Below are positions 1,373-59,550 of a DNA stretch of 60,000 bases, in pieces. Each line of letters starts with the position of its first letter. The first letter of the stretch is position 1. The translations under genes and the position numbers were made by a program. The DNA lies in contig CM075989.1 in assembly GCA_038087875.1 (NCBI GenBank), positions 10,232,001 to 10,292,000 on the forward strand, given 5' to 3'. The notes beneath the pieces were generated by a model. It saw only the letters and a list, made by a program, of their open reading frames with translations, did not search any database and was not told the origin of the DNA. Source of the DNA: Malacoraja senta (taxonomy: Eukaryota).

Positions 1373-1400
1373 CTGAAGAAGGGTCTCGACCCGAAACGTT
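1373..1400 (+). ncRNA. Minimal hammerhead ribozyme core in a Penelope-like terminal repeat
   Basis: CTGAAGA-A-GGGT(CTCG)ACCC-GAAACGTT. Confidence 0.7.
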
Positions 1401-4445: not shown

Positions 4446-4574
4446 TGTTAAAGAAGGAACTGCAGATGCTGGAAAATCGAAGGTACACAAAAATGCTGGA
4501 GAAACTCAGCGGGTGCAGCAGCATCTATGGAGCGAAGGAAATAGGCAACGTTTCGGGCCAAAACCCTTCTTCAG
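4446..4574 (-). mobile_element. Young Penelope-like pLTR fragment with hammerhead core
   Basis: Reverse complement of CTGAAGAAGGGTTTTGGCCCGAAACGTT at 4547-4574; 12-bp duplication ACATAGATAGAT; near-identical copy at ~4675-4784. Confidence 0.8.
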
Positions 4575-5202
4575 ACATAGATAGATGATGTTTCGGGTTG
4601 AGACCTTTCTTCAGAATGAAGTGTGACTTCATAATCCCTATGCTTTTTAAACCCAGTTTACCATCTTTAATGTTTTAAAGAAGGAACTGCAGATGCTGGA
4701 AAATCGAAGGTACACAAAAATGCTGGAGAAACTCAGCGGGTGCAGCAGCATCTATGGAGCGAAGGAAATAGGTAACGTTTCGGGTGCGTCCACAGGCTGT
4801 CCCTGGGTTAAGAATGCCCAACGTGCATTACGAACAAGCTCCCATAATATTATTAAATTCAAACGTCTGACGAGCAAACATATGTATGTTCCTTTGAGTG
4901 GCAGAGTAGTTACTACACTCTCTTCACTTTTGGTAATAGTTCGTTATTATAAGCATTCTATGGTTAGGATGCCATTCATTACAGAGGCATATTGAGTGAT
5001 ATTTGTGCATTTTCCAACTTATGAATGACTATAAAAACAGAACGTATTTGTTACCCAGGGCATCGGCAGCAAGATCGTGTTTACACTTGGAACAGTTTGC
5101 ACTTTACATTGTTGAGGTTACCAACATGATTTAATAGATTGTCCTGAGCGATACATTACTAATCCCAAAAAACAGGATGAGACCCATTCAACCTCTCAAC
5201 CT

Positions 5203-6179: not shown

Positions 6180-6268
6180 CTGAAGAAGCGTCCCGGCCCG
6201 AAACGTCACCTACTCATATTCCCCATGGATGCTGCCTGATCTGCCGAGTTACTCCAGCATTTTGTGAC
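6180..6268 (+). mobile_element. Penelope-like pLTR fragment with hammerhead core
   Basis: ctgaagaagcgtcccggcccgaaacgtc followed by the family tail. Confidence 0.75.
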
Positions 6269-6826: not shown

Positions 6827-7457
6827 GTTGGTTTTAAATTCAATAAAAGTGCTCCCCTCGGAAGAGGCCACAAACAGTAAACAAAAAACAAAAAGAATAG
6901 CTATCAAATTAAATTAAAATGTTTGATGGCACTCCAGTGCCCAGGTAACCACCTTTGCAGAAGGGCACTAAGTATTATTAAGTGCTCAATTCTTTGTTAT
7001 TCATTAGTTCATCTTTGCTGTTCATTTCACCCCTGAGTCTACCTATTGGTCTTGATTGGTATCCATTGGGCCCCTGCTTATTTTTCATTAACTTCCAATT
7101 ATTTAGCCAATAACCTCTGGCTGTTTTTCATTTGGCTTTGACAAAAAGTACTCCTGTATGAATAAGGCTTAAAATCAACATGAGCCCACTGTGTTTCAGA
7201 AGCTGCCCAAATTTGCGGTGTACACATAAAAAATGACCACTTGGAATGGGTCACTGATACTCTGAGAACTGTGACATCGATACTGATCAACACCTTCAAC
7301 CTTCGCCACAATTTACACTTCAAAAGCAGTTCATCAGCTGCAATCGGTATTGTGATATACAGAGATGTCGTGAAATGATGGGAAGATGCAAGGGAAGAGG
7401 AGAAAAGATTAAGACAAGGAGATCTGGGACTATTCTTGACCATTCTTTTGCCATGAG

Positions 7458-7760
7458 GTTTAGCTTTAGAGATACAGCACGAAAACAGACCCGTCGGCCC
7501 ACCGGGTCCACGCCGACCAACGATCTCCGTACACTAACACTATCCTACACACCAGGGACAATGTACAATCCTGACCGAGGCCAATTAACCTGCAAACCTG
7601 TATGTCTTTGGAGTGTGGGGGGAAACCGGAGCCGCCGGAGAAAACCCATGCGGTCACGGGGAGAACGTACAAACTCCGTACAGACAGCACCCATAGTCAT
7701 GATTGAACCCGAGTCTCTGGCACTGTAAGGCAGCAACTATGCTGCGCCACCTTGTCACCC
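7458..7760 (-). mobile_element. HE1-type V-SINE
   Basis: tRNA-like head, V-domain core and CR1-like tail. Confidence 0.88.
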
Positions 7761-8687
7761 ATGCCAGTCTAATATTAAAAATTGGTTTATTTTTACTAAA
7801 ATAAAATCAAATTATCTGGTGGCACCAATTAACCAATTTCAAATCCTAAAGAGATACAACATGGAAACAGGCCCTTCAGCCCACTCAGTTTACACTGACC
7901 ATCATGTGTCCATTTACATAAACTCTACTTTAATCCCATTATTTTTATTCTCCTAAATTTTCAACAATTCCCACCTCTTTCCCATCCTCATTTCCCACAA
8001 TTCCCAAACTCTACCTCTCACCTACACACACAAGGGTCAGTTGCCAACCTATACGTTTTTGGGATGTGGGAGAGAACCTGGATGTGGTACCCACATAGTC
8101 ACTGGGAGAACGTGCAAACTCCACCCAGGCAGTACCGGAGCGTCAGCGTTGAACCTAGGACCCTGGAACTGAGGCCAAGGCTTTACCAGCTATGCAATTG
8201 TGCTATTTAAAATCCACACATTTGTGAATTCAACATTGGTAACATTTGAGTTAGTAGATCATTTGATTAAAGTAACCAAATGTAATGTAAAGAATATAAA
8301 GAGAATATGTTAGATACTGCAATAGTCTGTTATAATGGATAGTCCTTTGCTACATGGCTAAACAAGTTGTCCAGCCTAAACAACACCGAAAAAAATGAAA
8401 AGGCCCCAGGATCAGGATAGCGTTGCTTTAATTATGAACAGTGTAATGAGTCACACTTACATTGCTGTGCAGAGGCAGATCAAAGATTAATATCAGGTGC
8501 ACTCTGCCCACTGCACTAGGAATTGATAACAATCAGAGATGGCATGTGGAGGCATGTGTGATAAATAACACAGATTTCGTACATCACAATGGAAAAAAAA
8601 CCATGAGAATACTCGGACAAATATTTACAGAACCATCTTTAACTCTCTGAGAGCTGCCAAGCGCAAAACTGCAAGGACATTAGTTTG

Positions 8688-9512: not shown

Positions 9513-9712
9513 NNNNNNNNNNNNNNNNNNNNNNNNNNNNNNNNNNNNNNNNNNNNNNNNNNNNNNNNNNNNNNNNNNNNNNNNNNNNNNNNNNNNNNNN
9601 NNNNNNNNNNNNNNNNNNNNNNNNNNNNNNNNNNNNNNNNNNNNNNNNNNNNNNNNNNNNNNNNNNNNNNNNNNNNNNNNNNNNNNNNNNNNNNNNNNNN
9701 NNNNNNNNNNNN
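9513..9712. other. Assembly gap (200 N)
   Basis: Run of n characters. Confidence 1.
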
Positions 9713-10011: not shown

Positions 10012-10763
10012 GAAAAATGGACAAATTCTGTATTTCCAGCACCCGTAGTCAGGATCAAACCCAGGTCTCTGGCACTGTAAGGCAGCAACTCTACCACTGT
10101 GCCACCGTGCCGCCCTATATCATATTTTGTTCTCTCCACATTCCCATCAGCTCCTCCCAGATTCCATCACTCACCTACAAAATCGGTGCAATTTACAGTG
10201 GCAATTAATCTGTCAACCAGAACAGTTTTGGTATGTGGGAGCTAACCAGAGCAGGGTGTTCATTTGGACAGGTACTTGGATAGGAAATATAGAACACAGA
10301 GCAATACAGCAGAGGAATAGGCCATTCACCCCGTAATGTGTGTGCTGAACATAATGCCAAGATAAATTAATCTCATCTGCCTGCTTGTGATCCATACAAC
10401 CTGCATTCGCAGCATATCCATGTGCCTATCTAAAAGCCTCTTAAACACCACTATTGTGGGATTTAGAGAGATATAGGCCAAATGCAAACAAAATGCTGGA
10501 GAAACTCAGCGGGTGAGGCAGCATCTATGGAGAGAAGGAATTGGCGACATTTCGGGTCGGGACCCTTCTTCAGACATGTGGGACTGATTCAGGAATATAC
10601 CTTTGTTGTCATGGGCGATTTGGGCCGAAGGGTCTGTTTCCATGACTCCGTGCTCTATGACTCCATGCCACCCGGGATAGCTCAGGCTGCCACAGGGAGA
10701 ATGTGCAAACTCCTCCACTCACAGAGGGCAGCAGAAGTCAGCATCAAACTCCAGGTCAGCGGA

Positions 10764-11273: not shown

Positions 11274-11329
11274 GAGAACACGGATAGGTGATGTTTTGGG
11301 TCGGGGCCCTTCTTCAGATCTCTGGTTTA

Positions 11330-11957
11330 GAATGCGATCTGAAAGGTACTTCCCCCAGTACTAGAGGTGCTGTTGAGTGTGCTACAACCTTCTCAACAAC
11401 ACTCCGGCCAGACATGGTCCTGTGGTCCACAACAGCCAAGTTGGCATACGTTGTGGAATTGACAGTTCCATGGGAAGATGGTGTTGAAGAAGCTTATGAG
11501 AGGAAAAAGACCAAGTACTCTGAACTGGCAACTGAAGCTTCCCAGAACGGCTGGATGACCAAGATTTTCCCTGTCGAAGTGGGATGCAGGGGATTTGTTG
11601 CTACATCTATGACCAGGCTATTAAAGAAAATGGGGGTGAGGGGTTGCTCCCTCCAACAAGCAATCAAGTCATTATCAAATTCTGGGGAAATACTGCAATT
11701 GGATCAAAAGGAGAGACAACAATTGGGCTGCAAGATGAAGACAGGAGGGTATGGAATTGAGAGGGGTTGTACCTCGGACACCAGGTATCACCGTTGAGCC
11801 CTCTGGAGATGTTGTGGGCTTATCAATGAAACGTCAAAGAAGGAGGGTGCCCACCTGATGACCCCGATGACGTACCTACCCTACCTTTCACCACTCCAAT
11901 CCCACTGCAAATAACAAGAGTGCCGACTTATTACAGGGATTGAAACATCAAGTCCTA
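11330..11957 (+). mobile_element. HERO-like (RLE-bearing, R2 group) non-LTR retrotransposon 3' fragment
   Basis: LRPDMVLWS..VVELTVPWED..ERKKTKYSEL..PVEVGCRG is a PD-(D/E)xK restriction-like endonuclease domain; 3' UTR follows. Confidence 0.85.
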
Positions 11958-18881: not shown

Positions 18882-20268
18882 ATCTGGGAACAATATTTCC
18901 CCCTCTGGCTCTGTGTGCCTTTCCCCTTTATATTGCTGCCTCACAAATATCTTTTTGTCAGGACGCAGAAGATAAATGGAGGCGTTTGACTGCAGGCAAA
19001 TGAAGCACTTAGCAAAGACTAAAGGCCTTCTTGATAAAGAAAGGATCTGAATACATTTTGTTTGAAACGAATAAAGCCCATTGGCAAATTACATTTAGCG
19101 GCATATTGCTGAAGAGAAATATGTTTACCAAGTATCTGAGAGATGAATGGGGATTATTGGACTGCAGATCCAGGGATTAAACACAGCTGGGTAGATTTTC
19201 AACACTGCTTGAGTATAAAGGGATTGGGGATCTATTAATGGAAATAAAAATCAAATGCTTTCCTTAATGAGTGCTCAACCGATTTATTACTTGAAGGATG
19301 TGGAAAATCTATACAGTCATTCTGTCCACTTAGGGCAGCAAGAGACGACTTTTGCCTTTGTGTCAGTACGATTATGCTTCCAGGACACCTTTCTGGAGTC
19401 TGTGCAGCCCTCTTGGTGCCGGCACTGACACAGTGCGGCTGAAGGTGCCATCTAACCGATGTGAGGCCCCAGTGATGGTGGTGGGGGCAGGAGGATTCGC
19501 CCCGCTGTGTTTAGACTTTAGAGATACAACGCGGAAACAGACCTTTCGGCCCACCAAGTCTGCGCCGACCAGCGATCACACCAGCACTATCAGATTGCTA
19601 TTTGCTGGGGCCTTCTGCGCACATAATGGCTGCTGTATTTCCACATAACTTACCCCGCTCCACCTGGCCGTTCATCTCGCCCTGCCTTCCCCGTCCGATG
19701 CTTCTCTCCCGTGGTTTGAATGTGAAGATTTGTCATTCATAGAACAAATTCATTCTGTTTATCTTAGAATAATGGAGTGCAAACTATCGAACTGAAACTG
19801 AAAATCATCAACTGGATTAAAAGGGATGCGACAGCCTCTCTGGAACGTCGGAAGCTGACAGAAGTATAAAAAATTCGGAAAGGTATAGATAGGGTAGACA
19901 GAATATTTTTCTCAAGGTGGAAATGTCAAAGACTAAAGGGCATAGCTTTCAGGTGACAGGAGGTTAAAGGTTAAGGTTACGGAGGTCGTTTGGTTTAGTT
20001 TAGAGATACACTGCCGAAACAGGCCCTTCGGCAGTGTACCATCCCCGCACACTAACACTACCCTACTAGGGACAATTTACAATTATACCAAGCCATTATT
20101 TTATAGGGGAATAAAATAATTAAAAAAAAGAAAAATAATAGCATTTTACAGAGTAATACTATTTATTGTGTGTGGCTGTGTGAATATCAAATTGTACTTT
20201 GCATTTGTGTGTGTGATGAATCTAATTGTGTACAAGTCACAGTGTATCAAATGATATGTGATTGTGTA

Positions 20269-21149
20269 GAAAGAACTGCAGATGCTGGAAAAATCGAAGG
20301 TAGACAAAATAGCTGGAGAAACTCAGCGGGTGAGGCAGCACCTCATTTTTGCTTCGGTAGTTTACACCCCAGCGGTATGAACATTGACTTCTCCAATTTC
20401 AGGTAGTCCTTGCTTTCTCCTTCCTTCCCCTCCCCTTCCCAGCTCTCCCACAGCCTACTGTCTCCGCCTCTTCCTTTCTTTCCCCCCCCCCTCGACAATT
20501 CCCTCCATAACTCCCTGGTCAATTCGTCCCTTCCCAGCCAAACCACCCCCTCCCCTGGTACTTTCCCTTGCAACCGCAGGAAATGCCACACTTGTCGCTT
20601 TACCTCCCTCGTCGACTCCATCCAAGGACCCAAGCAGTCTTTCCAGGTGAGGCAGAGGTTCACCTACACCTCCTCCAACCTTATTTATTGCATCCGCTGT
20701 TCCAGGTGTCAACTACTTTACATCAGTGAGACCAAGCGCAGGCTTGGCGATTGCTTCGCCCAACACCTCCGCTCAGTTCGCGATAGCCAACCTGATCTCC
20801 CGATGGCTCAGCACTTCAACTCCCCCTCCCATTCCGAATCCAACCTTCCATGATCAGAGTGAGTCCCACCGCAAATTGGAGGAACAGCACCTAATATTTC
20901 GCTTGGGTAGTTTACACCCCAGCAGTATAAACATTGACTTCTCCAATTTCAGGTAGTCCCTGCTTTCTCCTTCCTTCCACTCCCCTCCCCTTCCCAGCTC
21001 TCCAACAGCCTACTGTCAACGCCTCTTCCTTTATTTTTCCTACCCCCCCCCCAACATCAGTCTGAAGAAGGGTCTCGACCCGAAACGTCGCCTATTCCTT
21101 TGTTCCTTTCCTCACCCACTGAGTTTCTCCAGCATTTTTGTCTACCTTC
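20269..21149 (+). mobile_element. Penelope-like (probably Neptune-type) retroelement 3' fragment with GIY-YIG endonuclease, direct and inverted pLTRs
   Basis: PGTFPCNRRKCHTC zinc-knuckle-like linker, NLIYCIRCSRCQLLYISETKRRL..RF-like GIY-YIG region, LEEQHLIFRLGSLHP..NIDF end; direct repeat ~20336-20490/20886-21050. Confidence 0.92.
21062..21089 (+). ncRNA. Minimal hammerhead ribozyme core in the Penelope-like pLTR
   Basis: CTGAAGA-A-GGGT(CTCG)ACCC-GAAACGTC lies just downstream of the GIY-YIG stop codon and pyrimidine tract. Confidence 0.75.
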
Positions 21150-21941
21150 GATTGTGTACATGTCAATGTGCTAATACCTGTCTTACACTGTATCATCTAT
21201 TGTAAGCCCGTGAACAGGAAGATTGAAATACACGTGTGTGCGTGTGTATGTGTGTGTGTATACATGCACATATGTATAGTTGTGTGCACTCACACACACA
21301 TACAACATGCAAAACATTTACACTGGAACTGTTGAAGAACTGAATCATGAACAATGAAATTAAATGGACAAGTAATTTTGGTGAATCTAAGAGGAATCAG
21401 GATCTACAGAATGTACCCGTCATTATCATGCCCTCTGAATCCCCGAGTACAATGCACGAGAAAATGCTTTCTCAGCTCCTCACTGTATATATGTGAAAAC
21501 ACAACAAGTTTTCTCCACAACATGATTCACCAAACAGCCAGTCGATGAATGATAAATTCTTGTGTCTGGGTCATTGAGGGAGGATATTTGACGAGGAAAT
21601 TCGCTGCTCGTTTCAGATTTTTTTTACAACTTGGCTGAGCCTGACCGCTCTGTAAGGACACTTCTCCTATTGAAGATGAAGTGTTCATCACTGTAAATGG
21701 GTTGCCAGAGGAAAATGCTACAGTCCTGACATGAAGTCAAACACTTTAAAATGTCCATTTTGCAAAAGACCATTCTGATGTTTTAAGTTGGGGAGGATTT
21801 TGTCTGGCACAGGAGGAGATGTGGCTTTGCTCAAGGCCAGAATACGGTTCAAAGAGTTCAAGGCTGACGTTTTCATCTGTCAACCACTTACTGGGGTATA
21901 CTTGAATGAGTGCAGGCACTTCTGTACTACCGCAGAGAGGA

Positions 21942-22110: not shown

Positions 22111-22829
22111 CTGCAATTATGCTACATTGGTGCCATGGTATTTGAAGGTAAACAGGTTCTCCAAGGCCAAATTAGAAATCCGAAGCTGGTCAGGCAGCAT
22201 CTGCAGAATGACAATAAGAGCTGAGATCTCAGGTTGGAAACCCTTCATCAGAACTGGGAAAAAGAGAGAGAAGGGCAGCTGAGAAGTTGGTGGGAGAGAT
22301 GCATAGGACAACGGGAATATCTGTGATAGGGTGAGGTCAGATTGAATGGGGCAGTTAGAGGGTGATTATGCTTCATTGTGTGTTAGGCGTGGCTAGTCCA
22401 GGGCAGAGACTCTTACCCAGGAGGTCAGGCTGTACTAATGGAGAGAGCAAACTGAGCCAACGTCACATATGGATGTCTACAACCTGGTCCGACACAGACA
22501 GTGAAGGTGAGTTGCCTGAACTTGGGGAATTCAATATGGAATTCGAGAGCTGCATCATTCCTGAATGGAAAATGAGGTGTTGTTTCTTAATTTGCACCTC
22601 ATGCAGCAGAATGTTCTGATTTAACTCACGGGTGCATCATCAAAATAAACTGATGCTAATTCACCTCAGATGAGATTGTTTTGTTGGAGAAAAGTACAGA
22701 AGCGGGGAGACAAGACTAAGCCAGGATTTAAAAACAAGGGATGTTGTGAGTTGAGACACTGACTGAAGTAGTTTGAATGAAATCAAGATGGGATTCGATC
22801 AGCTGAAAAAAAATCAGTTCTCTCTTTGA

Positions 22830-24535: not shown

Positions 24536-25337
24536 CAGTACAGCTCTACCTGTTGTGCTTGCATGCGATTGATTATACTCTCTCTTGTATGATAATATGG
24601 TGGTATAAATAAGGATACGTGCTGGATTCACAAAGCCTCGCTGCCTAGAATTGGAAGAAGAAATTCTTGCCCTGAAAGTGTTGTTGTGGAACGTCCAGGC
24701 ACAAAGAGCTACATTCTACTCAATAATGCCTATTTACAGTGTGTTTATATCATAAAGTGATTCAAGATCTTCCTGAGAGCATTGTCAGCTGGGATTTGAT
24801 ACCGAGCCAAAATCGGTCCAAACACTGAGTTTTAATGAGGAAAGAGGCAGAGAGGTTTGGGGAGGGAATTTCAGAACAGAGAGCCTGATTGCTGAAGAGA
24901 TGGCTGCTCAAGGCAAGGAAATCAAGGAGACACACGTGGTTCAGAGTTGGAGGTGTACAAAGTTTTCGGGGGGGGGGATGGTCTGAGGGGTAGAAGAGAA
25001 AAGGCTGCTGAGCACTGAAAGCCTCCGCAGCGAACGTTCACACAGTTGATTTCAGAAGAGTCAGTTGCCCTGTGGGACTGAGGCATTAACAGATTAACAC
25101 GGGATTCGAGCAACAAAGGCAGCATTAACAGAGCTAGCCACCAAGATTAGCAGTGAATTCCAGGAATTTGGGGATGAGTAGCTACATAATATTGTGGGAT
25201 TTGATAACAAGAGCTGGACAGATGATACTAGGCAGACATATCCAGATCCCAGGATGGGCAAGAGAAGAAGGATAACTAACCCATTGAGAGAAGCCAGCAT
25301 TAAATGCTAGCAATTTTTTTAAAGCGGAGTGAAGTCT

Positions 25338-25655
25338 TAGTTTAATTTCAGTTTGGAGAAACAGCACGGAAACAGGCCATTCGGCCCAACATGTCTGCCC
25401 CGACCAGCGATCCCTGTACATTAACATTATCATACACACACTAGGAACAATGTACAATTTTACCAAGCCAATAAACCTACAAACTTGTACATCTTTGGAG
25501 TGTGAGAGGAAACTGGAGCTCCCAGAGAAAACCCACGCAGGTCACAGAGAGAACGTATAAACCCCGACAGAACATATAGACAGCACCCGTAGTCTGGATC
25601 AAACCTGGGTCTCTGGCGCTGTAAGGCAGCAACTCTATGGCTGTGCCACTGTGCC
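25338..25655 (-). mobile_element. HE1-type V-SINE
   Basis: Head-core-tail similarity. Confidence 0.88.
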
Positions 25656-25974
25656 GTCAGGAATTAACATTTGGCTAATCTATTGATTAAAATATCTAAT
25701 GTGAGGGAGACACAAGGAACTGCAAAGCACAAAGTGCTTGAATAACACAGTGGGACAGGCAGCATCTGTGGAGAAATGGACAGGTGATGTTTGGGTCAGG
25801 ACCCTTCTTCGGACTGATAGTAGTGGGGGGGGGGGAGAAAGCTGGAAAAGAGATGTGGGGCAGAGCAAAAGTCTGGCAGATGATAAGTAGATGCACGTGA
25901 GGGGGGTTTAAATGGCAGATGGGAAGAGGAAATGACAAAGGCTAGAGGTAAAGTAATGCGAGGGTTTGAGCCTG

Positions 25975-34842: not shown

Positions 34843-36789
34843 AGCCACATGAGATGGACTAGGTGCTAAATGAATATTGTCCCCCATTCCTATGTATTTT
34901 TTGAGCAATTGTTTAATTTCACATCAGTTTATACCTTGTCCAAAAGAACCATTTGGAATAGTGGATAGTGAAGGGATTAATTCAAAGAGCAAATGTCTGC
35001 CCTTTGCCACCAAATACCTTAATTGCTGATCACTTTGAAGCTGGACACTTTACAGTTAGTCATGTCCTCACTTTCCTCACCTATTTCATCTGCTTATCTG
35101 GCGGTTCGGATTACATAGGGCTGTCTCCATCTTTGTAGTCATGCCAGAGAGGATCTATCAAACCGCGTGGCTCGGGGAACAAGAGGTTGTCATTCTTGAG
35201 GAGTTAAAGGCCTTTAATCTGACAATAACCGTTCTCCATTCAGGACTGAGAGGGTGGATCATGACGAAAGCTGCCGTGCTTTTTTGGCAGTGGGAGTTTT
35301 CCCTTCCACTAAAGGACCCTTGATGAGGTCAAATTAAGCGATTGAGTTTCCAGAATCTTCTTTGAACATTGTAGACAATTAGATACAACACCAGCATCAC
35401 TGAACCACTGCCCAAAAGGAGTTTTTATACACTGTTGTTTCATCTAAACTGAACAACTCTCGTGCAATGGATTTTAATTAAGGTTGTTTTCACTTGATGG
35501 AGGCAAAGATGCTGAACCGTTTTGCTTCGTTACCCAGTGTGGTCACATTGGGAAGGGTGAGGGGGGGGGGGGCAGCAGGGGTGCCTTTAGGAGGAAGGTA
35601 AATGCGCACATGTATGTGGGGGATTTAGTATCTATGGTGCCATTTCCCTTGGGATTCAGGAACAAGGGGGTTCTTTGAGCTTGGTGCAGCATGGTTCATT
35701 GAAGCAACACCAGACCAGCAAAGGAACAGCAGATCACAAAAGGACGCGGGGAGAACGTACAAAGTCTGTACAGACAGCACCCGTATTCGGGATCGAACCC
35801 AGGTCTCCGGTGCTGCAAGCACTGTAAGGCAGCAACTCTACCGCTGCGCCACCGAAGTGAAGATGTGGGACTTTATTTCGTGAGGTCTCGTACCAGCACT
35901 GCTCCCCACAGAAGATTAACTTTTTTTTTTAAACTAAAAATCTACAATAAAAACAGAAAATGCTGGAAATACTCAGCCGGTAAGGCTGCGTCTGCATTCA
36001 GAGAACCAGAGCGAATGTTTCAGGCGATTTATCAGGTTAATATCTTTCCCCAGTAATGCTCCAGAAGGTAGCTTTACGTGGCAATAACTGCACTGCACAC
36101 ACAACTAAGCAAGTGCCCAATCAATTTCCCAGAAGGTGCAAAACAACCTGGAAATGATCGCCACCACTTTTCACTCTGTTTATTCTCAATTGTGTAGCAC
36201 TGAAATAAGCAATGCTAAGTGATCTAATTTCTCGGCCCCCAGAAAGAGCAAGGGATAAAAGCACGTATTGAAGGCTTGTCTTGTTATCCTGCACAATTGG
36301 TTTCAGGAAGCATTCATTATGTGACTCTTTTATGTAGCATGCATTGTATGTACTTAATGAAACATACAAAACCCTCTATTGTTGCGCATTCTAACACACA
36401 GTATTCATACAGCATCCATTGCGTGTTGCAAGGAGGAATTGGCGTATTAACTAGTTTCTATGGTTTTGCTTAAGCCTGAATTTGTTTTTATCTGTTTCCA
36501 ATGACACCTGGAGTTGGTAGGAATTTGACAGCCATGTTGTGAGAGGTGTGCATTTCCGATTACATTTCCATATAAAATATCCTTGGTTGCAGGGAAGCAA
36601 ACAAAACATTTCCCACTTTTTTTTAATTGACTTGTTTATTCAGGTTAAATGTTTGGACTCATTTCCCCTTAAGTGGCCTATTTTTCATTTGCAAGCACGT
36701 TGGAAATGTCCACCTGCTCTTCCCATGGTTTTCTGAACGATTTTCGTTGCTATTGAGATTTTCACAACATTAGTATTTCTCGCAGTGAG

Positions 36790-37928: not shown

Positions 37929-39074
37929 CCCCTTCACCCCATTATATCTGTGCCGAACATGATGCCAAATTAAACTATGTGATAGATCGCCCTCCTTTCC
38001 CAGCATATCAAAAAGCAGAGTTAAAGAACTTCAGATGATAATTTGCAAAATAAGACACAAAGTGCTAGAGTAACTCAGCGGGACCGGCGGCATCCCTGGA
38101 GAACATGGATAGGTGACGTTTTGGGTCTGGACCCTCCCTGCGGGTGCCGAACAGAAACATCACCTATCCATGTTGTCCCGGGATGCTACCTGACCCACTG
38201 AGTTACTCCAGCACTTTCTGTCTTTGTTAAAATCTAAAACCCTCTTAAACAGCACTATCCTATTTACTTCCATCACCTCCCCAGTCAGCATGTTCCAGGC
38301 ACTGTCTGTGTTTAAAAAAAAAGTTGCCCTGTGCATCTCCTGCAAACTACTCCCCTCTGACCATAAATCTGTGCCCTGCAGTATCTGACATTTCCAGTGG
38401 AGGAAAAAGGTTCTGACTGTCCACCTTATCTATGCTCTCATAATTGTATATAGTTCTATCAGCTCACCCCTCAGCATCCGCCTCCCACAATCACGCAGCT
38501 CCACACTGGGAACTGTACGGGAACATGGGATCACTGGCAGCTATTGCTCATCCACAATTGGCATCCAGCCCCCTTCTTGAACCACTGCCACCTCTCTGGT
38601 CAAAGTGCTTCTTTTGTTTTGATGTGCTGGTTGTGAAGCAACTACAGGGCTTGCTGGGCTGGTTTGGAGGTGGTCCAGGGATGAATCACATTGCTGTGGG
38701 TTTGGAGTTACATACTGGCCAGACTCAGTAAGAATAGCAGCTTTGCTCATTGGAGTGAACCACTTGAGTCCTTCCACCAATAACGCAGTGTCACGGTCAC
38801 CATCACAAGCCATCCCTGCATTAGGATAACAGAAGTTTGCCCTTACAAAATTTACAATTCACTCGCAAAAAATGTGAGAATGTGAGAATAAAGTTCACTC
38901 ACATAATTTTTTGTGTGAAAAAAGTAAATAAATAAACACAAATAAGGAGATCAAAACTCCACATAGTGCAGCAGTCTAATAATCACCTATGCAACACCGA
39001 GCAACATTCCTTCGGCTTTCCTAACTGTTTGTTGTTCCTGCATGCTAACCTCTTGTGCTTCATAGGACACACAC

Positions 39075-40734: not shown

Positions 40735-41100
40735 ATCTCTTACCCGCAGAACACAATTAGTGAGAATAGGTGACAAAACATCCTCCACGATAATTCTAAA
40801 GCCGCGTAAGAATACGTTCTCAACCCCCTTACTATACTCACGTGTAGGAAAGAACTGCAGATGCTGGTTCAGATCGAAGGAGTTACCTCAGTGGGACAGG
40901 CAGTATCTCTGGAGAGAAGGAATGGGTGACCCAAGGGTCTCGACCCGAAACGTCACCCATTCCTTCTCTCCAGAGATGCTGCCTGTCCCGCTGAATTACT
41001 CCAGCGTTTTGTGTCGACCTTCCTTACTATACTCCCTGGATAGCACAAAAAGCAATGCTTCTCACACATGATGAGTTCGGTACACGTGACAATAATAATC
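40735..41100 (+). mobile_element. Rex1/Babar-like RT fragment interrupted by an inverted Penelope-like insert
   Basis: LT.RTQLVRIGDKTSSTIIL...PLLYSL; insert 40840-41021 with 13-bp duplication CCTTACTATACTC. Confidence 0.7.
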
Positions 41101-47453: not shown

Positions 47454-47481
47454 CTGAAGAAGGGTTTCGACCCGAAACATC
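47454..47481 (+). ncRNA. Minimal hammerhead ribozyme core (variant) in a Penelope-like pLTR
   Basis: CTGAAGA-A-GGGT(TTCG)ACCC-GAAACATC. Confidence 0.6.
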
Positions 47482-55600: not shown

Positions 55601-56030
55601 AGGCTGCATCAGTGGAGAGAGAGAGACAAAGTTAAGATTTCAGGTTCAAATTAATAGCCTCAAACCATATTGTCAACTTTCCACTTCCCCCAAAGATGTT
55701 GCCTGATCCACTGAGTTTGTCCAGTGAGTTTATATTTGTTTAAGGTTTCAGGGTGATGACCATTTCCCAGTTGAGATGAAGAGTCTTTGACATAACCCAG
55801 TGTTTCTCTGTTCAGATGCTGCCTTACCTGATGAGTATTTTAAGTCTTTTCCCCTTGTTACAAACCCATTTCAGTTTAGACCGGTGGTGTTGCTCCACCT
55901 CTCCCTTTATCTCCTGTCACAGAGTGCCAGGGGTCCTGGGAACAGGATCTCAGTAACAATCTCCTTAGTCCATGACTGGAGACTCAGCTGGAGTGATCTC
56001 CCACCCTGCCAGATAGGTGTGGTCTAATTT

Positions 56031-56343
56031 GTTTTAGTTTAGTTTAGAGATACAGTGCGGAAACAGGCCATTCGGCCCACCGGGTCCGCGCCGACCAGCG
56101 ATCGCCGCACATTAACACTATCCTACACCCACTAGGGAAAATGTTTACATTTACCAAGCCAATTAACGTACAAACCTGTACGTCTTTGGAGTGTGGGAGG
56201 AAACCGAAGATCTCGGAGAAAACTCACGCAGATCACGGGGAGAACGTACGAACTCTGTACAGACAGCACCCGTAGTCAGGATCAAACCCAGGTCTCCGGC
56301 ACTGCATTCGGTGTAAAGCAGCAACTCTACCACTGCGCCATCG
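56031..56343 (-). mobile_element. HE1-type V-SINE (young, CpG-rich)
   Basis: Near-consensus full-length copy. Confidence 0.92.
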
Positions 56344-59300
56344 TAGGAGGCGCAGCGGTAATTCCAGGGACCTGATCCAAACCGACCCCTGTCCACTCTA
56401 TCCACAGATGCTGCCTGACCCACTGAGTTCCTGCAGCACTCTGTGTTTTGCTCGAGGTTCCAGAATTTACAATTCCTTGTGTCTCCAGATTGAAGTTCCA
56501 TCTGGCCCAAAATATTTGCTCAGCTCTTTGGGAATTTGGGGGAATGACTTCCATCATCTGCACCAAATGGGATCCCGGTCATGAATCTGCAACACCTGGT
56601 GCAAAGAGAAAATCTACCTCTTGCCACAAGTGCATAATGTTGAGAGAAAAGCACACACTTTTTAATGCAGTCTTCAGGAAATTAGTGAGGGCGCCTGCCT
56701 TCTTGAGTCAGATGGTTGTAGATTTGAGCCTTTCTCCAGGGCTTTGATCAGTAAATCGAGGCTAGCAGAGAGGGAGAGTTGTCTGCCAGGAGAGATGGTA
56801 AACCAAGGTCTAGTCTTCTCTCTCATGAGGATGTAAAAAAAAAAATCATTGCATTATTACAAAGAAGAACAGGAGAGTTTTCCCCAGGTTCCTGGCCCCT
56901 ATTTACCCCATCATCTATATTTGTGGTAATCAACATTTGTACACTCCCCATCCAATGATTCAATTGGCTACTAGCGTGGGTTGATCCCTAGGGCCCCGAT
57001 AAGTAGCAAAGGTTTAATGTCTAACGTCTGGTGCATTTTACGGAGCGCAGCCAAGATGACTCAAGGGTCACTCTAACTGTCCTAGCAGTTCTTGCATGAT
57101 TTCAATGCAAGAACAGTGAAAGAAGTTAGTTCCAAGCAATGGCACACATATAATTGATAAGCAATTCCTGTACATTAGGTGTCATCTGCAAGCACTCAAA
57201 CTCAACCTTGATCCGTCCAAATGGCCGTACAATTGACATCTGTCATTGGGTTGTGGTTCTATTACTTTGCATTAAGTGCACAGTTCAATATCCCCTTCTA
57301 TATTAAGCTGCTGACAAGCTGATTTCATACAGCATTTCTATTCTATTGTCAGCGTTGTCCTTGAACCATTAACATCGTGTCTGAAGATTGTTCATTCTTG
57401 GACCTTTACAGAGAATGAAAACAAATGAATCCTTTGAAAATGATAGAAAGAAAGGGCTTTTATTTCTATGACGGTTTCTTGATTTCCCCAACTTCTATTC
57501 AGCCGATGAATTGCTTTTGAAGTGCACTCGTTGTTACAATGCAGGAGAAATGTCAGCCAATTTACACACAGCGACGTGATTAGAAGTGTTGGACTTGTCA
57601 CATATCATGTCATGTCTTCTTCTGATAAGGAAGGTCAGTTGGCAATTTGAAGCGACTCAGGAAATGACAGGTACACACTCCAAGTGCAGCGAGCTATAAC
57701 ATTTCCAAAGGACAGCTCTGGTTGTAATTGTGCACCTGGCAAATGGACGTGAACATCAAGACTTCATACTGCTCAGGCAGAGGTGCTATAATCCCAATTT
57801 TAACTCGATTAGATTAAAACTGACTCATCGGGTCAGGCAGCATCTGTGGAGGGAAACAGTTCAGCCAATGTGCTCCTCCTCCTACACCACGACCAACCTA
57901 GATCCTCCCTCTCATGCCCTTCCTTCCCACAACACCATGCCCCTCTCACCCAGCTTCTTTCCCACCCTCTCCATCTGCCCATCTCACGTGGGCCTACCCA
58001 TCATGTGCCAGCTCTTGCACCACCCATCTCACCTCATACTAGCCATCACCTCTCCAATCCTTTAGTTCAGAGGAAGGGTCTCAACCCGAAACGCGACTGT
58101 CCATTTCCCTCCACAGATGCTGCCTGATCCACTGAGTTGGGTGACCTCTATACTGTAATATTGAGTAATGATTCAAAGGCTGTGAAGGAATAATTATGGT
58201 GAGGTACTGTTAGCATGCAGGAGGATGGTGCTGCTGTGTGTTCAGATGGTGTTGCCAGGAGGTGGCCTGTAGATGATATGTGAAAGGGTCAAAGGCAGAT
58301 GCAGTAACAATGCAGTAACAATGCAGTAACAATGCAGTGGGGAGGAGGGACATTTGTACCAATTTTGCCAGTTTTCCCCTCCAGACTTGTTGGATTATCA
58401 CACACCTTCCCCTTGATCCATGCACCCTTTTTTTAAATCATTGATCACTCCTTGTCTTCCAACCTATTACAGACCTTCCCTTTTCTTCACTCTTCCCCTC
58501 CCATTCTCTGACACTGTGCTGTTTTACTCACCATCCCATCTCTGATTTCCCCAGTCCTGATGAAAAGGCGTGGGCCTGATGCAAGAACTCTGTCTCTCCA
58601 TCAGAATTGCTGCCTGACCTGTGAAATATTTCCACCGCTCTCTCTTTGTTTCTGAAGTGGCCTGCAGCTTTGTTCCAGCCCGGTGCAGTTGTCTATATGA
58701 GTGTTTCTGTTTAGATGGGGGCATGGGTGAAGAGTGACTCATGCACAAAGGCATTTACCGCAGTATATGCACCAGCATGTAATAAAGGCCTTTGAAATCT
58801 ACTAAGCCATCAATTACATGCTTATAGTAAAGTAAATATAGAACGTCAGTGGAAAAGTAGCTTTGTGTGAATGAAAGATAATTGTGGCACTTGGGTGCAT
58901 AATAAGATAATACTGGCATGCAACAGGCAATCTGAAGTGGCTTATTGTGACTTGTTTTGTTTTTGCTTGCTACTAGTAAAACCAACCCATAATAAAGGTC
59001 CTCTGAAAACTCAATAAGTCTATAAAGAGTTATCCCTACTTGATATCCTGTCCCAATCGGTTTCCCCAACTCTGGACTCAATGCAAACAATTTTTTTATC
59101 TAAGTTATCCAACATTTTCCATTTTTTAAACATTGACTCACTCCCTCTTTCTGTAGATGCTCCTTGACCTAATGTACTTGCACTAAACTAGTTGTCACTG
59201 TGACAGCAGTAAGTGTCCACACAATTAGCCATAATAGCCATAGGCAAAACAGGGAGTGGCGGGGTTTGGGAGATTGGAAATGATCCCAAACCTTTCTCCT

Positions 59301-59396
59301 AATGCCTCAGAACGTTTAACAGTTCAGTGAAGTGGCGCAAAGAGAATACCAGGACCAGGAGACCAGAAGCAAAGGGGCAACACATTAAAACTGGAG

Positions 59397-59550
59397 ATAG
59401 ATACAAAAAGCTGGAGTAACTCAGCAGGACAGACAGCACCTCTGGTCTCGACCCGAAACATCACCCATTCCTTCTCCCCAGAGATGCTGCCTGTCCCGCT
59501 GAGTTACTCCAGCATTTTGTGTCTATCATCAGCATCTGCACTTCCTTCAT
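59397..59550. mobile_element. Inverted Penelope-like pLTR pair
   Basis: Self-complementary arms; 17-bp duplication ACACATTAAAACTGGAG. Confidence 0.88.

What the first reader, a model, noticed from the sequence alone, without database searches (positions are those of the whole stretch)
21055..21150. About 20 minimal hammerhead ribozyme cores dispersed across 60 kb
Seen: CUGAAGA-A-GGGU(NNNN)RCCC-GAAACGUY, intact or nearly so at 1373(+), 4547(-), 6180(+), 21062(+) and 47454(+). Degenerate or partial copies lie near 4587, 8781, 10546, 11290, 14751, 15073, 17640, 22896, 25786, 27004, 28168, 32225, 38115, 40933, 54955, 58066 and 59445. The stem II loop varies (CUCG, UUCG, UUUG, CCCG) while the stem is mostly kept. 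Established: Penelope-like elements carry minimal type I hammerheads with a palindromic stem III (ACGU/AACGUU) that cleave as dimers. Caveat: stem I is only about 2 bp here. Inference: this genome may hold a very large ribozyme reservoir able to act on pre-mRNAs.
Basis: partly seen in the sequence, partly recalled or inferred. Interest (0 to 1): 0.72.

Follow-up and report, generated by a model that had tools for sequence, protein, structure and literature searches.

The report
Penelope retrotransposon hammerheads, mostly dead copies
The motifs are real minimal hammerhead-ribozyme sequences of a known kind, carried in the end repeats of a very abundant Penelope-like jumping gene; most scattered copies are damaged and the rest likely cannot cut host RNA, but about half of the intact ones begin sharply at the ribozyme's front edge, which likely records how the element is copied.

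Summary
Observation confirmed, reading only partly. All 22 listed sites are copies of one ~100-nt repeat. The window holds 41 copies; 3 keep core, helix II and ACGU, and 2 also keep helix I, on opposite strands. The repeat is the 3' pseudo-LTR end of a Neptune-type Penelope-like element (RT plus GIY-YIG; closest named proteins from skate, rays, sharks), with the motif in both flanking repeats of long copies. It fits the minimal hammerhead described in 2014. This scan's notes report the same kind in other (shark) genomes. The genome holds 54,342 exact copies and roughly 0.8 million remnants. A host 'reservoir' is not supported: helix I is 2 bp, the hammerhead is not the predicted fold, same-strand partners are rare (2 of 100 within 500 nt), and the catalytic core decays as fast as its flanks (5.2 vs 5.3%). 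Not found in the papers searched: 50 of 92 intact copies start within about 7 nt upstream of the core, there is no pile-up at the cleavage site, and 1,059 exact fold-back junctions sit at that edge. This suggests that the RNA template ends, or reverse transcription stops, at the ribozyme's 5' edge.

The parts
20260..20268 (.). Left target-site duplication (9 bp) of the insertion that holds the finding
   Evidence: sequence: same 9 bases at 21150-21158
20269..20343 (-). Inverted copy of the element's 3' end with its ~35-nt tail
   Evidence: tail seen
20344..20497 (+). Partial tandem piece of the pseudo-LTR, stops before its hammerhead
   Evidence: one search compared
20500..20956 (+). 5'-truncated end of the element's ORF: Cys linker and GIY-YIG endonuclease, broken by a frameshift near 20850, stop at 20954-20956
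   Evidence: 83-90% identity to the 149 other scored genome copies, 58,778 candidates
20957..21056 (+). Pyrimidine-rich 3' UTR of the pseudo-LTR
   Evidence: shared with loci
21057..21061 (+). TCAGT: 5' arm of helix I (last 2 nt); reverse complement of the core's first four bases; site where about half of intact copies begin
21062..21069 (+). Core C3-A9 plus the extra A between positions 9 and 10.1
   Evidence: consensus in PMC4209133
21070..21081 (+). Helix II, 4 bp with G10.1-C11.1, 4-nt loop
21082..21089 (+). G12-A14, ACGU palindrome (15.1-16.1, no loop III) and C17; predicted cut after 21089
   Evidence: sequence; cut position inferred from hammerhead numbering
21090..21091 (+). 3' arm of helix I (2 bp only)
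21092..21149 (+). 3' end of the element, with a short internal deletion in this copy
21150..21158 (.). Right target-site duplication
4547..4574 (-). Second fully intact motif (UUUG loop, GUU triplet) in a short copy with tail
4587..4614 (-). Damaged same-strand neighbour (10.1-11.1 mismatch, G16.2>A), 40 nt from the 4547 copy
1373..1400 (+). Intact core and helix II, 3' arm of helix I missing
6180..6207 (+). Core intact, helix II mismatch, no helix I
10546..10573 (-). Near-intact copy, C15.2>U
47454..47481 (+). Copy with G16.2>A, palindrome lost

Best explanation
The motif is the minimal type I hammerhead carried in both flanking repeats of a Penelope-like retrotransposon (reverse transcriptase plus GIY-YIG endonuclease); it likely cuts only the element's own RNA, as a dimer and likely with help from the element's protein, while the scattered copies are truncated insertions that decay like their flanks and are predicted to be inert. 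Shown: sequence anatomy, position in the element, copy numbers, decay rates, insertion ends. Inferred: in a transcript running from repeat to repeat the two ACGU palindromes pair to form helix III and the RNA is cut after GUC/GUU. Inferred: reverse transcription starts just downstream (copies end about 95 or about 130 nt after the core, i.e. without or with the tail) and in about half of cases stops at the ribozyme's 5' edge, which is why so many ribozyme-only copies exist.
For: GIY-YIG coding sequence directly upstream of 21062. RT (YIDD-type motif) and GIY-YIG in one open frame of 572 aa in L054, 490 aa in L032. Motif in both flanking repeats of long copies, 3,835 bp apart in L221 and 4,360 bp in L222. 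Partial tandems, inverted 5' copies, tail and target-site duplications, all described for PLEs (PMC8557442, passages). Fit to the min-HHR consensus (PMC4209133, main text parts 1-2 of 4 and supplement parts 1-2 of 3). Non-CpG divergence core 114 of 2,192 vs flank 476 of 8,989, p=0.92, in 219 classified of 241 spanning copies; 63 of 1,008 vs 213 of 3,054, p=0.47, in the unselected sample. In one young subfamily G12>A is the commonest of five CpG variants counted: 1,163 vs 717 for a loop control, against 18,581 intact. Active dimer about -6.7 kcal/mol vs -25 to -29 for other dimer folds. An Anolis Penelope hammerhead cleaved only with the element's protein and was not needed for insertion (PMC11167929, main text parts 1-2 of 4).
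Against: No cleavage was measured. Helix II shows no two-sided compensatory change among five subfamilies of this genome, only a U-A/U-G change, so function rests on homology, not covariation. Pfam scores are below the curated cut-offs (RT 25.1 vs 29.6, GIY-YIG 20.0 vs 22.6). With a 2-bp helix I the ribozyme may be dead even in the master elements. Tens of thousands of intact cores exist and the repeat is abundant in RNA of a relative, so rare cutting of host RNA is not excluded. The 1.6-fold excess of G12>A and G16.2>A is unexplained.
Confidence: 0.85

Rival explanations
1. One reading: the dispersed intact cores form a working reservoir that cuts host pre-mRNAs (as trans dimers or with protein help), and the excess of inactivating G>A changes is the footprint of host selection against them.
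For: 54,342 exact cores. Repeat end abundant in polyA RNA of a related organism, in both directions. G12>A 1.62 times the loop control and G16.2>A 1.65 times C15.2>U in a nearly symmetric context; the same direction in the sampled copies. Tandem retrozymes are reported to be excluded from genes in Xenopus (10.64898/2026.07.22.740005, abstract and Discussion).
Against: 2-bp helix I; hammerhead not the predicted monomer or dimer fold; 1 same-strand pair within 500 nt among 100 intact copies, 0.67 expected by chance; head-to-head pairs would form long hairpins; overall core decay equals flank decay; no pile-up of read ends; published single min-HHRs showed no cleavage and dimers little (PMC4209133). 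CpG rates differ with wider sequence context (recalled), which could give a 1.6-fold spread.
Confidence: 0.06
2. The motif descends from a hammerhead but is no longer catalytic even in active elements; it is kept as a promoter or protein-binding signal (TCAGTC resembles an initiator, with ACGT about 27-30 nt downstream).
For: Helix I only 2 bp; no compensatory change; copies start at TCAGT; the Drosophila Penelope promoter has an initiator and a downstream element RGACGTGY (PMC2377424, passages); cleavage was dispensable for insertion in vitro (PMC11167929).
Against: All core positions, G10.1-C11.1 and ACGU are the majority base in four of the five main subfamilies whose flanks differ (in the oldest, C, G12 is outnumbered by its CpG decay product), and 2-bp helix I occurs in listed PLE hammerheads of Culex, D. 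virilis and Oikopleura (PMC4209133 Fig. S3). In D. virilis the start site lies 46 nt before a 75-nt intron, not at the ribozyme (PMC2377424; PMC4209133).
Confidence: 0.2
3. The short ribozyme-only copies are an independent SINE-like family, transcribed on their own and mobilised by the Penelope protein.
For: Discrete ~95/130-nt units, several with 7-16 bp target-site duplications; non-autonomous PLE derivatives are proposed in 10.64898/2026.07.22.740005 (Discussion).
Against: Short and long copies share the same subfamily letters; 5' ends are ragged over 0-7 nt; 4 of 24 copies attached to the element body also start at the same edge.
Confidence: 0.1

Closest known systems
Minimal hammerheads (min-HHR) in pseudo-LTRs of metazoan Penelope-like elements (Cervera and de la Pena 2014, PMC4209133)
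   Same: CUGANGA plus one extra base, G10.1-C11.1, GAAA, palindromic 15.2-16.2 without loop, UH triplet; present in both flanking repeats; mostly single dispersed copies from truncated elements.
   Different: Helix I (2 bp) and helix II (4 bp) are at the short end of the published range. 54,342 exact copies against about 4,000 (coelacanth) and 9,000 (Xenopus), counted there with another method. No cartilaginous fish in their Table S1 or Fig. S3 as read; supplement file 1 could not be searched.
Poseidon element of Anolis (PAc) and its protein-assisted hammerhead (Frangieh et al. 2024, PMC11167929)
   Same: Hammerhead near the repeat-ORF junction; two 3' end points separated by a 30-40 nt tail; no RNA-seq ends at the cut site.
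   Different: In PAc the ORF starts at stem II; here no start codon lies in the ribozyme in the body's frame (L070). This element has the Neptune-type Cys linker. No strong 5'-end hotspot is described in the parts read.
Neptune clade of EN+ Penelope-like elements (Craig et al. 2021, PMC8557442, passages)
   Same: C-terminal GIY-YIG, CX2-5CxxC linker between RT and endonuclease (CNHRKCYTC in P0001), partial tandems, inverted 5' copy, tail.
   Different: Clade placement was not tested with a tree.
Lunse, Weinberg and Breaker, small hammerhead variants that cleave as dimers (PMC5785218)
   Same: Shrunken stem III, link to Penelope elements, dimer cleavage, as summarised in the review PMC6765202 (passages).
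   Different: The paper itself was not available; it may already list cartilaginous-fish examples.
Non-LTR retrozymes (10.64898/2026.07.22.740005)
   Same: Type I hammerhead related to PLE pseudo-LTRs; found in the one cartilaginous fish sampled there.
   Different: Those are tandem arrays; here nearly all copies are single. One ~98-nt tandem array with damaged cores was seen (L052/L063).

Membership tests
PLE minimal hammerhead (min-HHR) | Core CUGANGA ... GAAA ... UH | tested here: met
   21062-21089; majority bases in subfamilies A, A2, B, D
PLE minimal hammerhead (min-HHR) | Extra base between 9 and 10.1 and a G10.1-C11.1 pair | tested here: met
   consensus in PMC4209133
PLE minimal hammerhead (min-HHR) | Palindromic 15.1-16.1 with no loop III | tested here: met
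   ACGU in intact copies
PLE minimal hammerhead (min-HHR) | Short helix I closing the motif | tested here: met
   2 bp; the published alignment runs from 2 to 6 bp
PLE minimal hammerhead (min-HHR) | Compensatory changes in the helices | tested here: inconclusive
   only one-sided changes among subfamilies of this one genome; other species not aligned
PLE minimal hammerhead (min-HHR) | Located in both pseudo-LTRs of a PLE | tested here: met
   L221, L222, L217; L070
PLE minimal hammerhead (min-HHR) | Self-cleavage as a dimer | not testable with these tools
   energy estimates only
Rfam hammerhead families | Match to a covariance model | tested here: not met
   no hammerhead family among 12 matches at E<=1
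EN+ Penelope-like element | RT and C-terminal GIY-YIG in one ORF | tested here: met
   L054, 572 aa: RVT_1 E=1.7e-5 and GIY-YIG E=8.7e-4, both below Pfam cut-offs; motifs visible
EN+ Penelope-like element | Partial tandems, inverted 5' copies, 30-40 nt tail | tested here: met
EN+ Penelope-like element | Retained spliceosomal intron in the pseudo-LTR (some PLEs) | tested here: inconclusive
   pyrimidine tract and CAG precede the core, but the candidate GT donor is missing in subfamily A2 and no clean splice joint was listed
Neptune clade | CX2-5CxxC linker between RT and EN | tested here: met
   P0001; feature named in PMC8557442
Neptune clade | Phylogenetic placement with Neptune RTs | not tested
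   no named reference set at hand
Non-LTR retrozyme | Tandem array with an intact hammerhead in consecutive units | tested here: not met
   2 of 100 intact copies have a same-strand intact neighbour within 500 nt

The most novel reading that the evidence does not exclude
[quoted passage not shown] Reverse transcription, primed internally 95-130 nt downstream, runs off that end and gives a retrovirus-like 'strong-stop' cDNA; this is either inserted as a ribozyme-only unit, folds back on the TCAG-T-CTGA palindrome, or jumps to the downstream repeat, which the ribozyme dimer holds close. That would explain the 2-bp helix I, the flood of ribozyme-only copies and the tandem and inverted insertions of Penelope elements in one model.
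Probability: 0.33. Interest if true: 0.6.

Novelty: new member of a known kind. Interest (0 to 1): 0.3.

Why it matters
As a ribozyme finding it is ordinary: the kind was described in 2014, and this genome adds a very large count. The decay data give a direct, genome-scale argument against host use of the copies. The sharper point concerns Penelope biology, where the role of the hammerhead and the origin of the tandem and inverted insertions are open. Here tens of thousands of young insertions mark where copying starts and stops: copies pile up at the ribozyme's 5' edge and not at its cut site, which argues that cleavage does not define the template's 5' end and makes a strong-stop model testable.

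Tried and rejected
Rfam scan: no hammerhead match; the miRNA-type hits are simple repeats or inverted copies of this repeat. Cleavage sets the 5' end of insertions: rejected, 11 of 190 copies start in model columns 29-40 and 2 at column 36 (alignment edges are imprecise). Intron with the donor at the ORF stop and acceptor just before the core: 0 intron-less DNA copies, donor not kept in subfamily A2, one contig joint within 1 nt of the expected one and none from raw reads among the joints shown, 59 not shown; left unproven. Cap-derived extra G at the 5' junction: 10 of 26 against 7.2 expected, p=0.16; no support. Longer or bulged helix I: not found, 7 of 132 cores have 3 or more pairs. Host gene in the window: 150 of 303 non-repeat frames scanned, two weak hits below cut-off, nothing convincing; the strand-bias test was therefore not run, and the window's 27:14 strand ratio is not interpreted. 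No RNA holder on record was listed for this organism. Contig-based runs X1, X4, X6 give presence only. Literature: searches found no paper on this family in cartilaginous fish or on a 5'-end hotspot; the Lunse paper and supplement file 1 of PMC4209133 were not seen, bioRxiv supplements are closed, and Repbase/Dfam entries could not be checked.

Full report
Observation. The motif lies at 21062-21089 on the + strand as described. Only three copies (1373+, 4547-, 21062+) keep every core base, the four pairs of helix II and ACGU. The one at 1373 lacks the 3' arm of helix I, so two are complete, on opposite strands and 16.5 kb apart. Thirty-six 10-kb stretches taken at round coordinates held 143 copies, which scales to about 0.77 million remnants (standard error about 14%). 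In 460 kb, 13 of 201 copies had an intact core. Rfam lists no hammerhead family here.

What it is. Directly upstream of 21062 the window encodes a GIY-YIG endonuclease end, with 58,778 candidate matches in the genome, 150 scored. Longer copies carry a reverse transcriptase and the endonuclease in one frame (490 aa in L032; 572 aa in L054 with both Pfam families, each below its curated cut-off). The linker has the CX2-5CxxC motif that PMC8557442 (passages read) assigns to Neptune elements; no tree was built. The closest named proteins come from a skate (83% over 57% of the query), rays (67-74%) and sharks (64-69%), with coral, mollusc and urchin proteins near 47-51%, so the host is likely a skate-like cartilaginous fish. 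Of 15 long loci examined, three had the motif at both ends of RT/EN coding sequence (3,835 bp apart in L221, 4,360 in L222, 3,193 in the deleted L217). The insertion that holds the finding runs from 20269 to 21149 between 9-bp target-site duplications and consists of an inverted 3' end with tail, a partial repeat and a truncated body, the arrangement described for these elements.

Anatomy of the ribozyme. Core C3-A9, one extra A, a 4-bp helix II opened by G10.1-C11.1, G12-A14, ACGU with no loop, then C or U. This matches the consensus of Cervera and de la Pena (PMC4209133; main text parts 1-2 of 4 and supplement parts 1-2 of 3 read). Helix I has two pairs, as in their Culex, D. virilis and Oikopleura entries. 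Among five subfamilies the helices differ only by one-sided changes, so there is no covariation evidence from this genome. The hammerhead is not the lowest-energy fold of any monomer tested, and the active dimer (about -6.7 kcal/mol) lies far above other dimer folds (-25 to -29). Such energies omit tertiary contacts and proteins. Published single min-HHRs did not cleave and dimers cleaved weakly (PMC4209133); the Anolis one cleaved only with the element's protein and was not needed for insertion (PMC11167929, main text parts 1-2 of 4 read).

Is it a reservoir acting on host RNA? Against: among the first 100 exact copies on the largest contig, one same-strand pair lies within 500 nt (0.67 expected by chance) and 8 within 3.5 kb (4.7 expected). 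Non-CpG divergence of core and flank is the same: 114 of 2,192 against 476 of 8,989 (p=0.92) in 219 classified copies, after leaving out loci L001-L011 and 22 unclassified copies, and 63 of 1,008 against 213 of 3,054 (p=0.47) in the unselected sample. Two CpG sites lie on G12 and on the palindrome. In one young subfamily there are 18,581 intact copies, 1,163 with G12>A, 890 with C11.1>U, 832 with G16.2>A, 717 with the loop control and 504 with C15.2>U. The catalytic base is therefore not protected. The 1.6-fold excess of the two inactivating G>A changes is real in the counts and unexplained; mutation context is the plainer cause (recalled), selection against activity the bolder one. No host gene was identified in the window, so the strand test was not run.

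An added result: where copies begin. I took 92 copies chosen only for an exact 28-nt core, in 90 loci from the lists. Fifty begin within about 7 nt upstream of C3 (15 of them against an inverted partner), several with 7-16 bp target-site duplications. Forty-two extend 20 nt or more; of these 5 end between -20 and -50 and none between -51 and -110. This selection cannot see ends inside the core. In the unselected sample of 190 copies, 58 share under 20 nt upstream, 27 abut an inverted partner, 36 start in columns 14-28, and only 11 start in columns 29-40 around the cut site (old copies may be misclassed). The genome holds 1,059 exact head-to-head junctions centred on the TCAG-T-CTGA palindrome. 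Four of 24 copies attached to the element's body also start at this edge (two triplets among the 24 are near-identical). The 3' ends fall at two points, without and with a tail of about 35 nt, like the two start sites of reverse transcription in Anolis. The simplest reading is that the RNA template ends at the ribozyme's 5' edge (TCAGTC resembles an initiator, recalled consensus) and that many insertions are strong-stop products. Rivals are a stall before the pyrimidine tract, a splice acceptor at the same CAG, or a separate SINE. A cap-derived G was not significant, and in D. virilis the start site lies upstream of an intron and not at the ribozyme (PMC2377424, passages), which counts against generality.

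Comparison and novelty. The motif is a member of the PLE min-HHR kind on every feature that could be tested, except covariation (inconclusive) and cleavage (not testable). Three earlier notes of this scan reached the same reading on other shark genomes; they are unchecked and I tested the claim only on this genome. Searches found no paper on this family in cartilaginous fish or on a 5'-end hotspot; the Lunse paper was not available and is known to me through a review (PMC6765202, passages) and recall, and repeat databases could not be checked. The 2026 preprint (abstract, part 1 of 5, passages and Discussion read) reports tandem retrozymes in one cartilaginous fish.

Verdict. New member of a known kind; interest 0.3.

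Noticed in passing
G000 genome-wide; L142; window 40883-41018, 59396-59526, 38052-38224: Head-to-head inverted pairs of the repeat end are common; 1,059 are joined exactly at the TCAG-T-CTGA palindrome. They would form long RNA hairpins and produced some of the miRNA-like Rfam hits.
   Followed up: partly
G000, UUCG/GUU subfamily: Inactivating G12>A and G16.2>A changes are about 1.6 times as common as their CpG controls; cause unknown.
   Followed up: partly
L070:2025-2100 and window 4450-4520(-): The tail repeats CCAGCAU from the element's 3' end, so one upstream strand has two alternative partners; this may relate to the two 3' end points.
   Followed up: no
loci: At least four subfamilies with different 3' UTRs all end in a pyrimidine tract and CAG one base before helix I, which fits either a splice acceptor or an initiator.
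   Followed up: partly
L052:8571-9165 and L063:86-582: A tandem array of about 98-nt units of the hammerhead end with damaged cores, resembling a retrozyme-type array.
   Followed up: no
window 11288-11797 (+): A 169-aa frame that looks like the restriction-like endonuclease end of a non-LTR retrotransposon (motif recalled; no Pfam hit).
   Followed up: no
window, families D2, D3, D7, D12, D14, D17 (e.g. 7450-7762, 25337-25658, 56028-56346): A second abundant repeat of about 330 nt, likely a tRNA-derived SINE on the minus strand (resemblance to elasmobranch HE1 SINEs is recalled, not tested).
   Followed up: no
window 22184-22256(-), 35952-36054(-), 58554-58622(+): Older, more diverged relatives of the repeat, two with a CUGAUGA core, suggest a long history of this family.
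   Followed up: no
window 9513-9712: A run of 200 N.
   Followed up: no
P0004, P0031, P0070: Pieces of this element's ORF appear inside annotated ray and skate gene isoforms; these may be exonisation or annotation errors.
   Followed up: no
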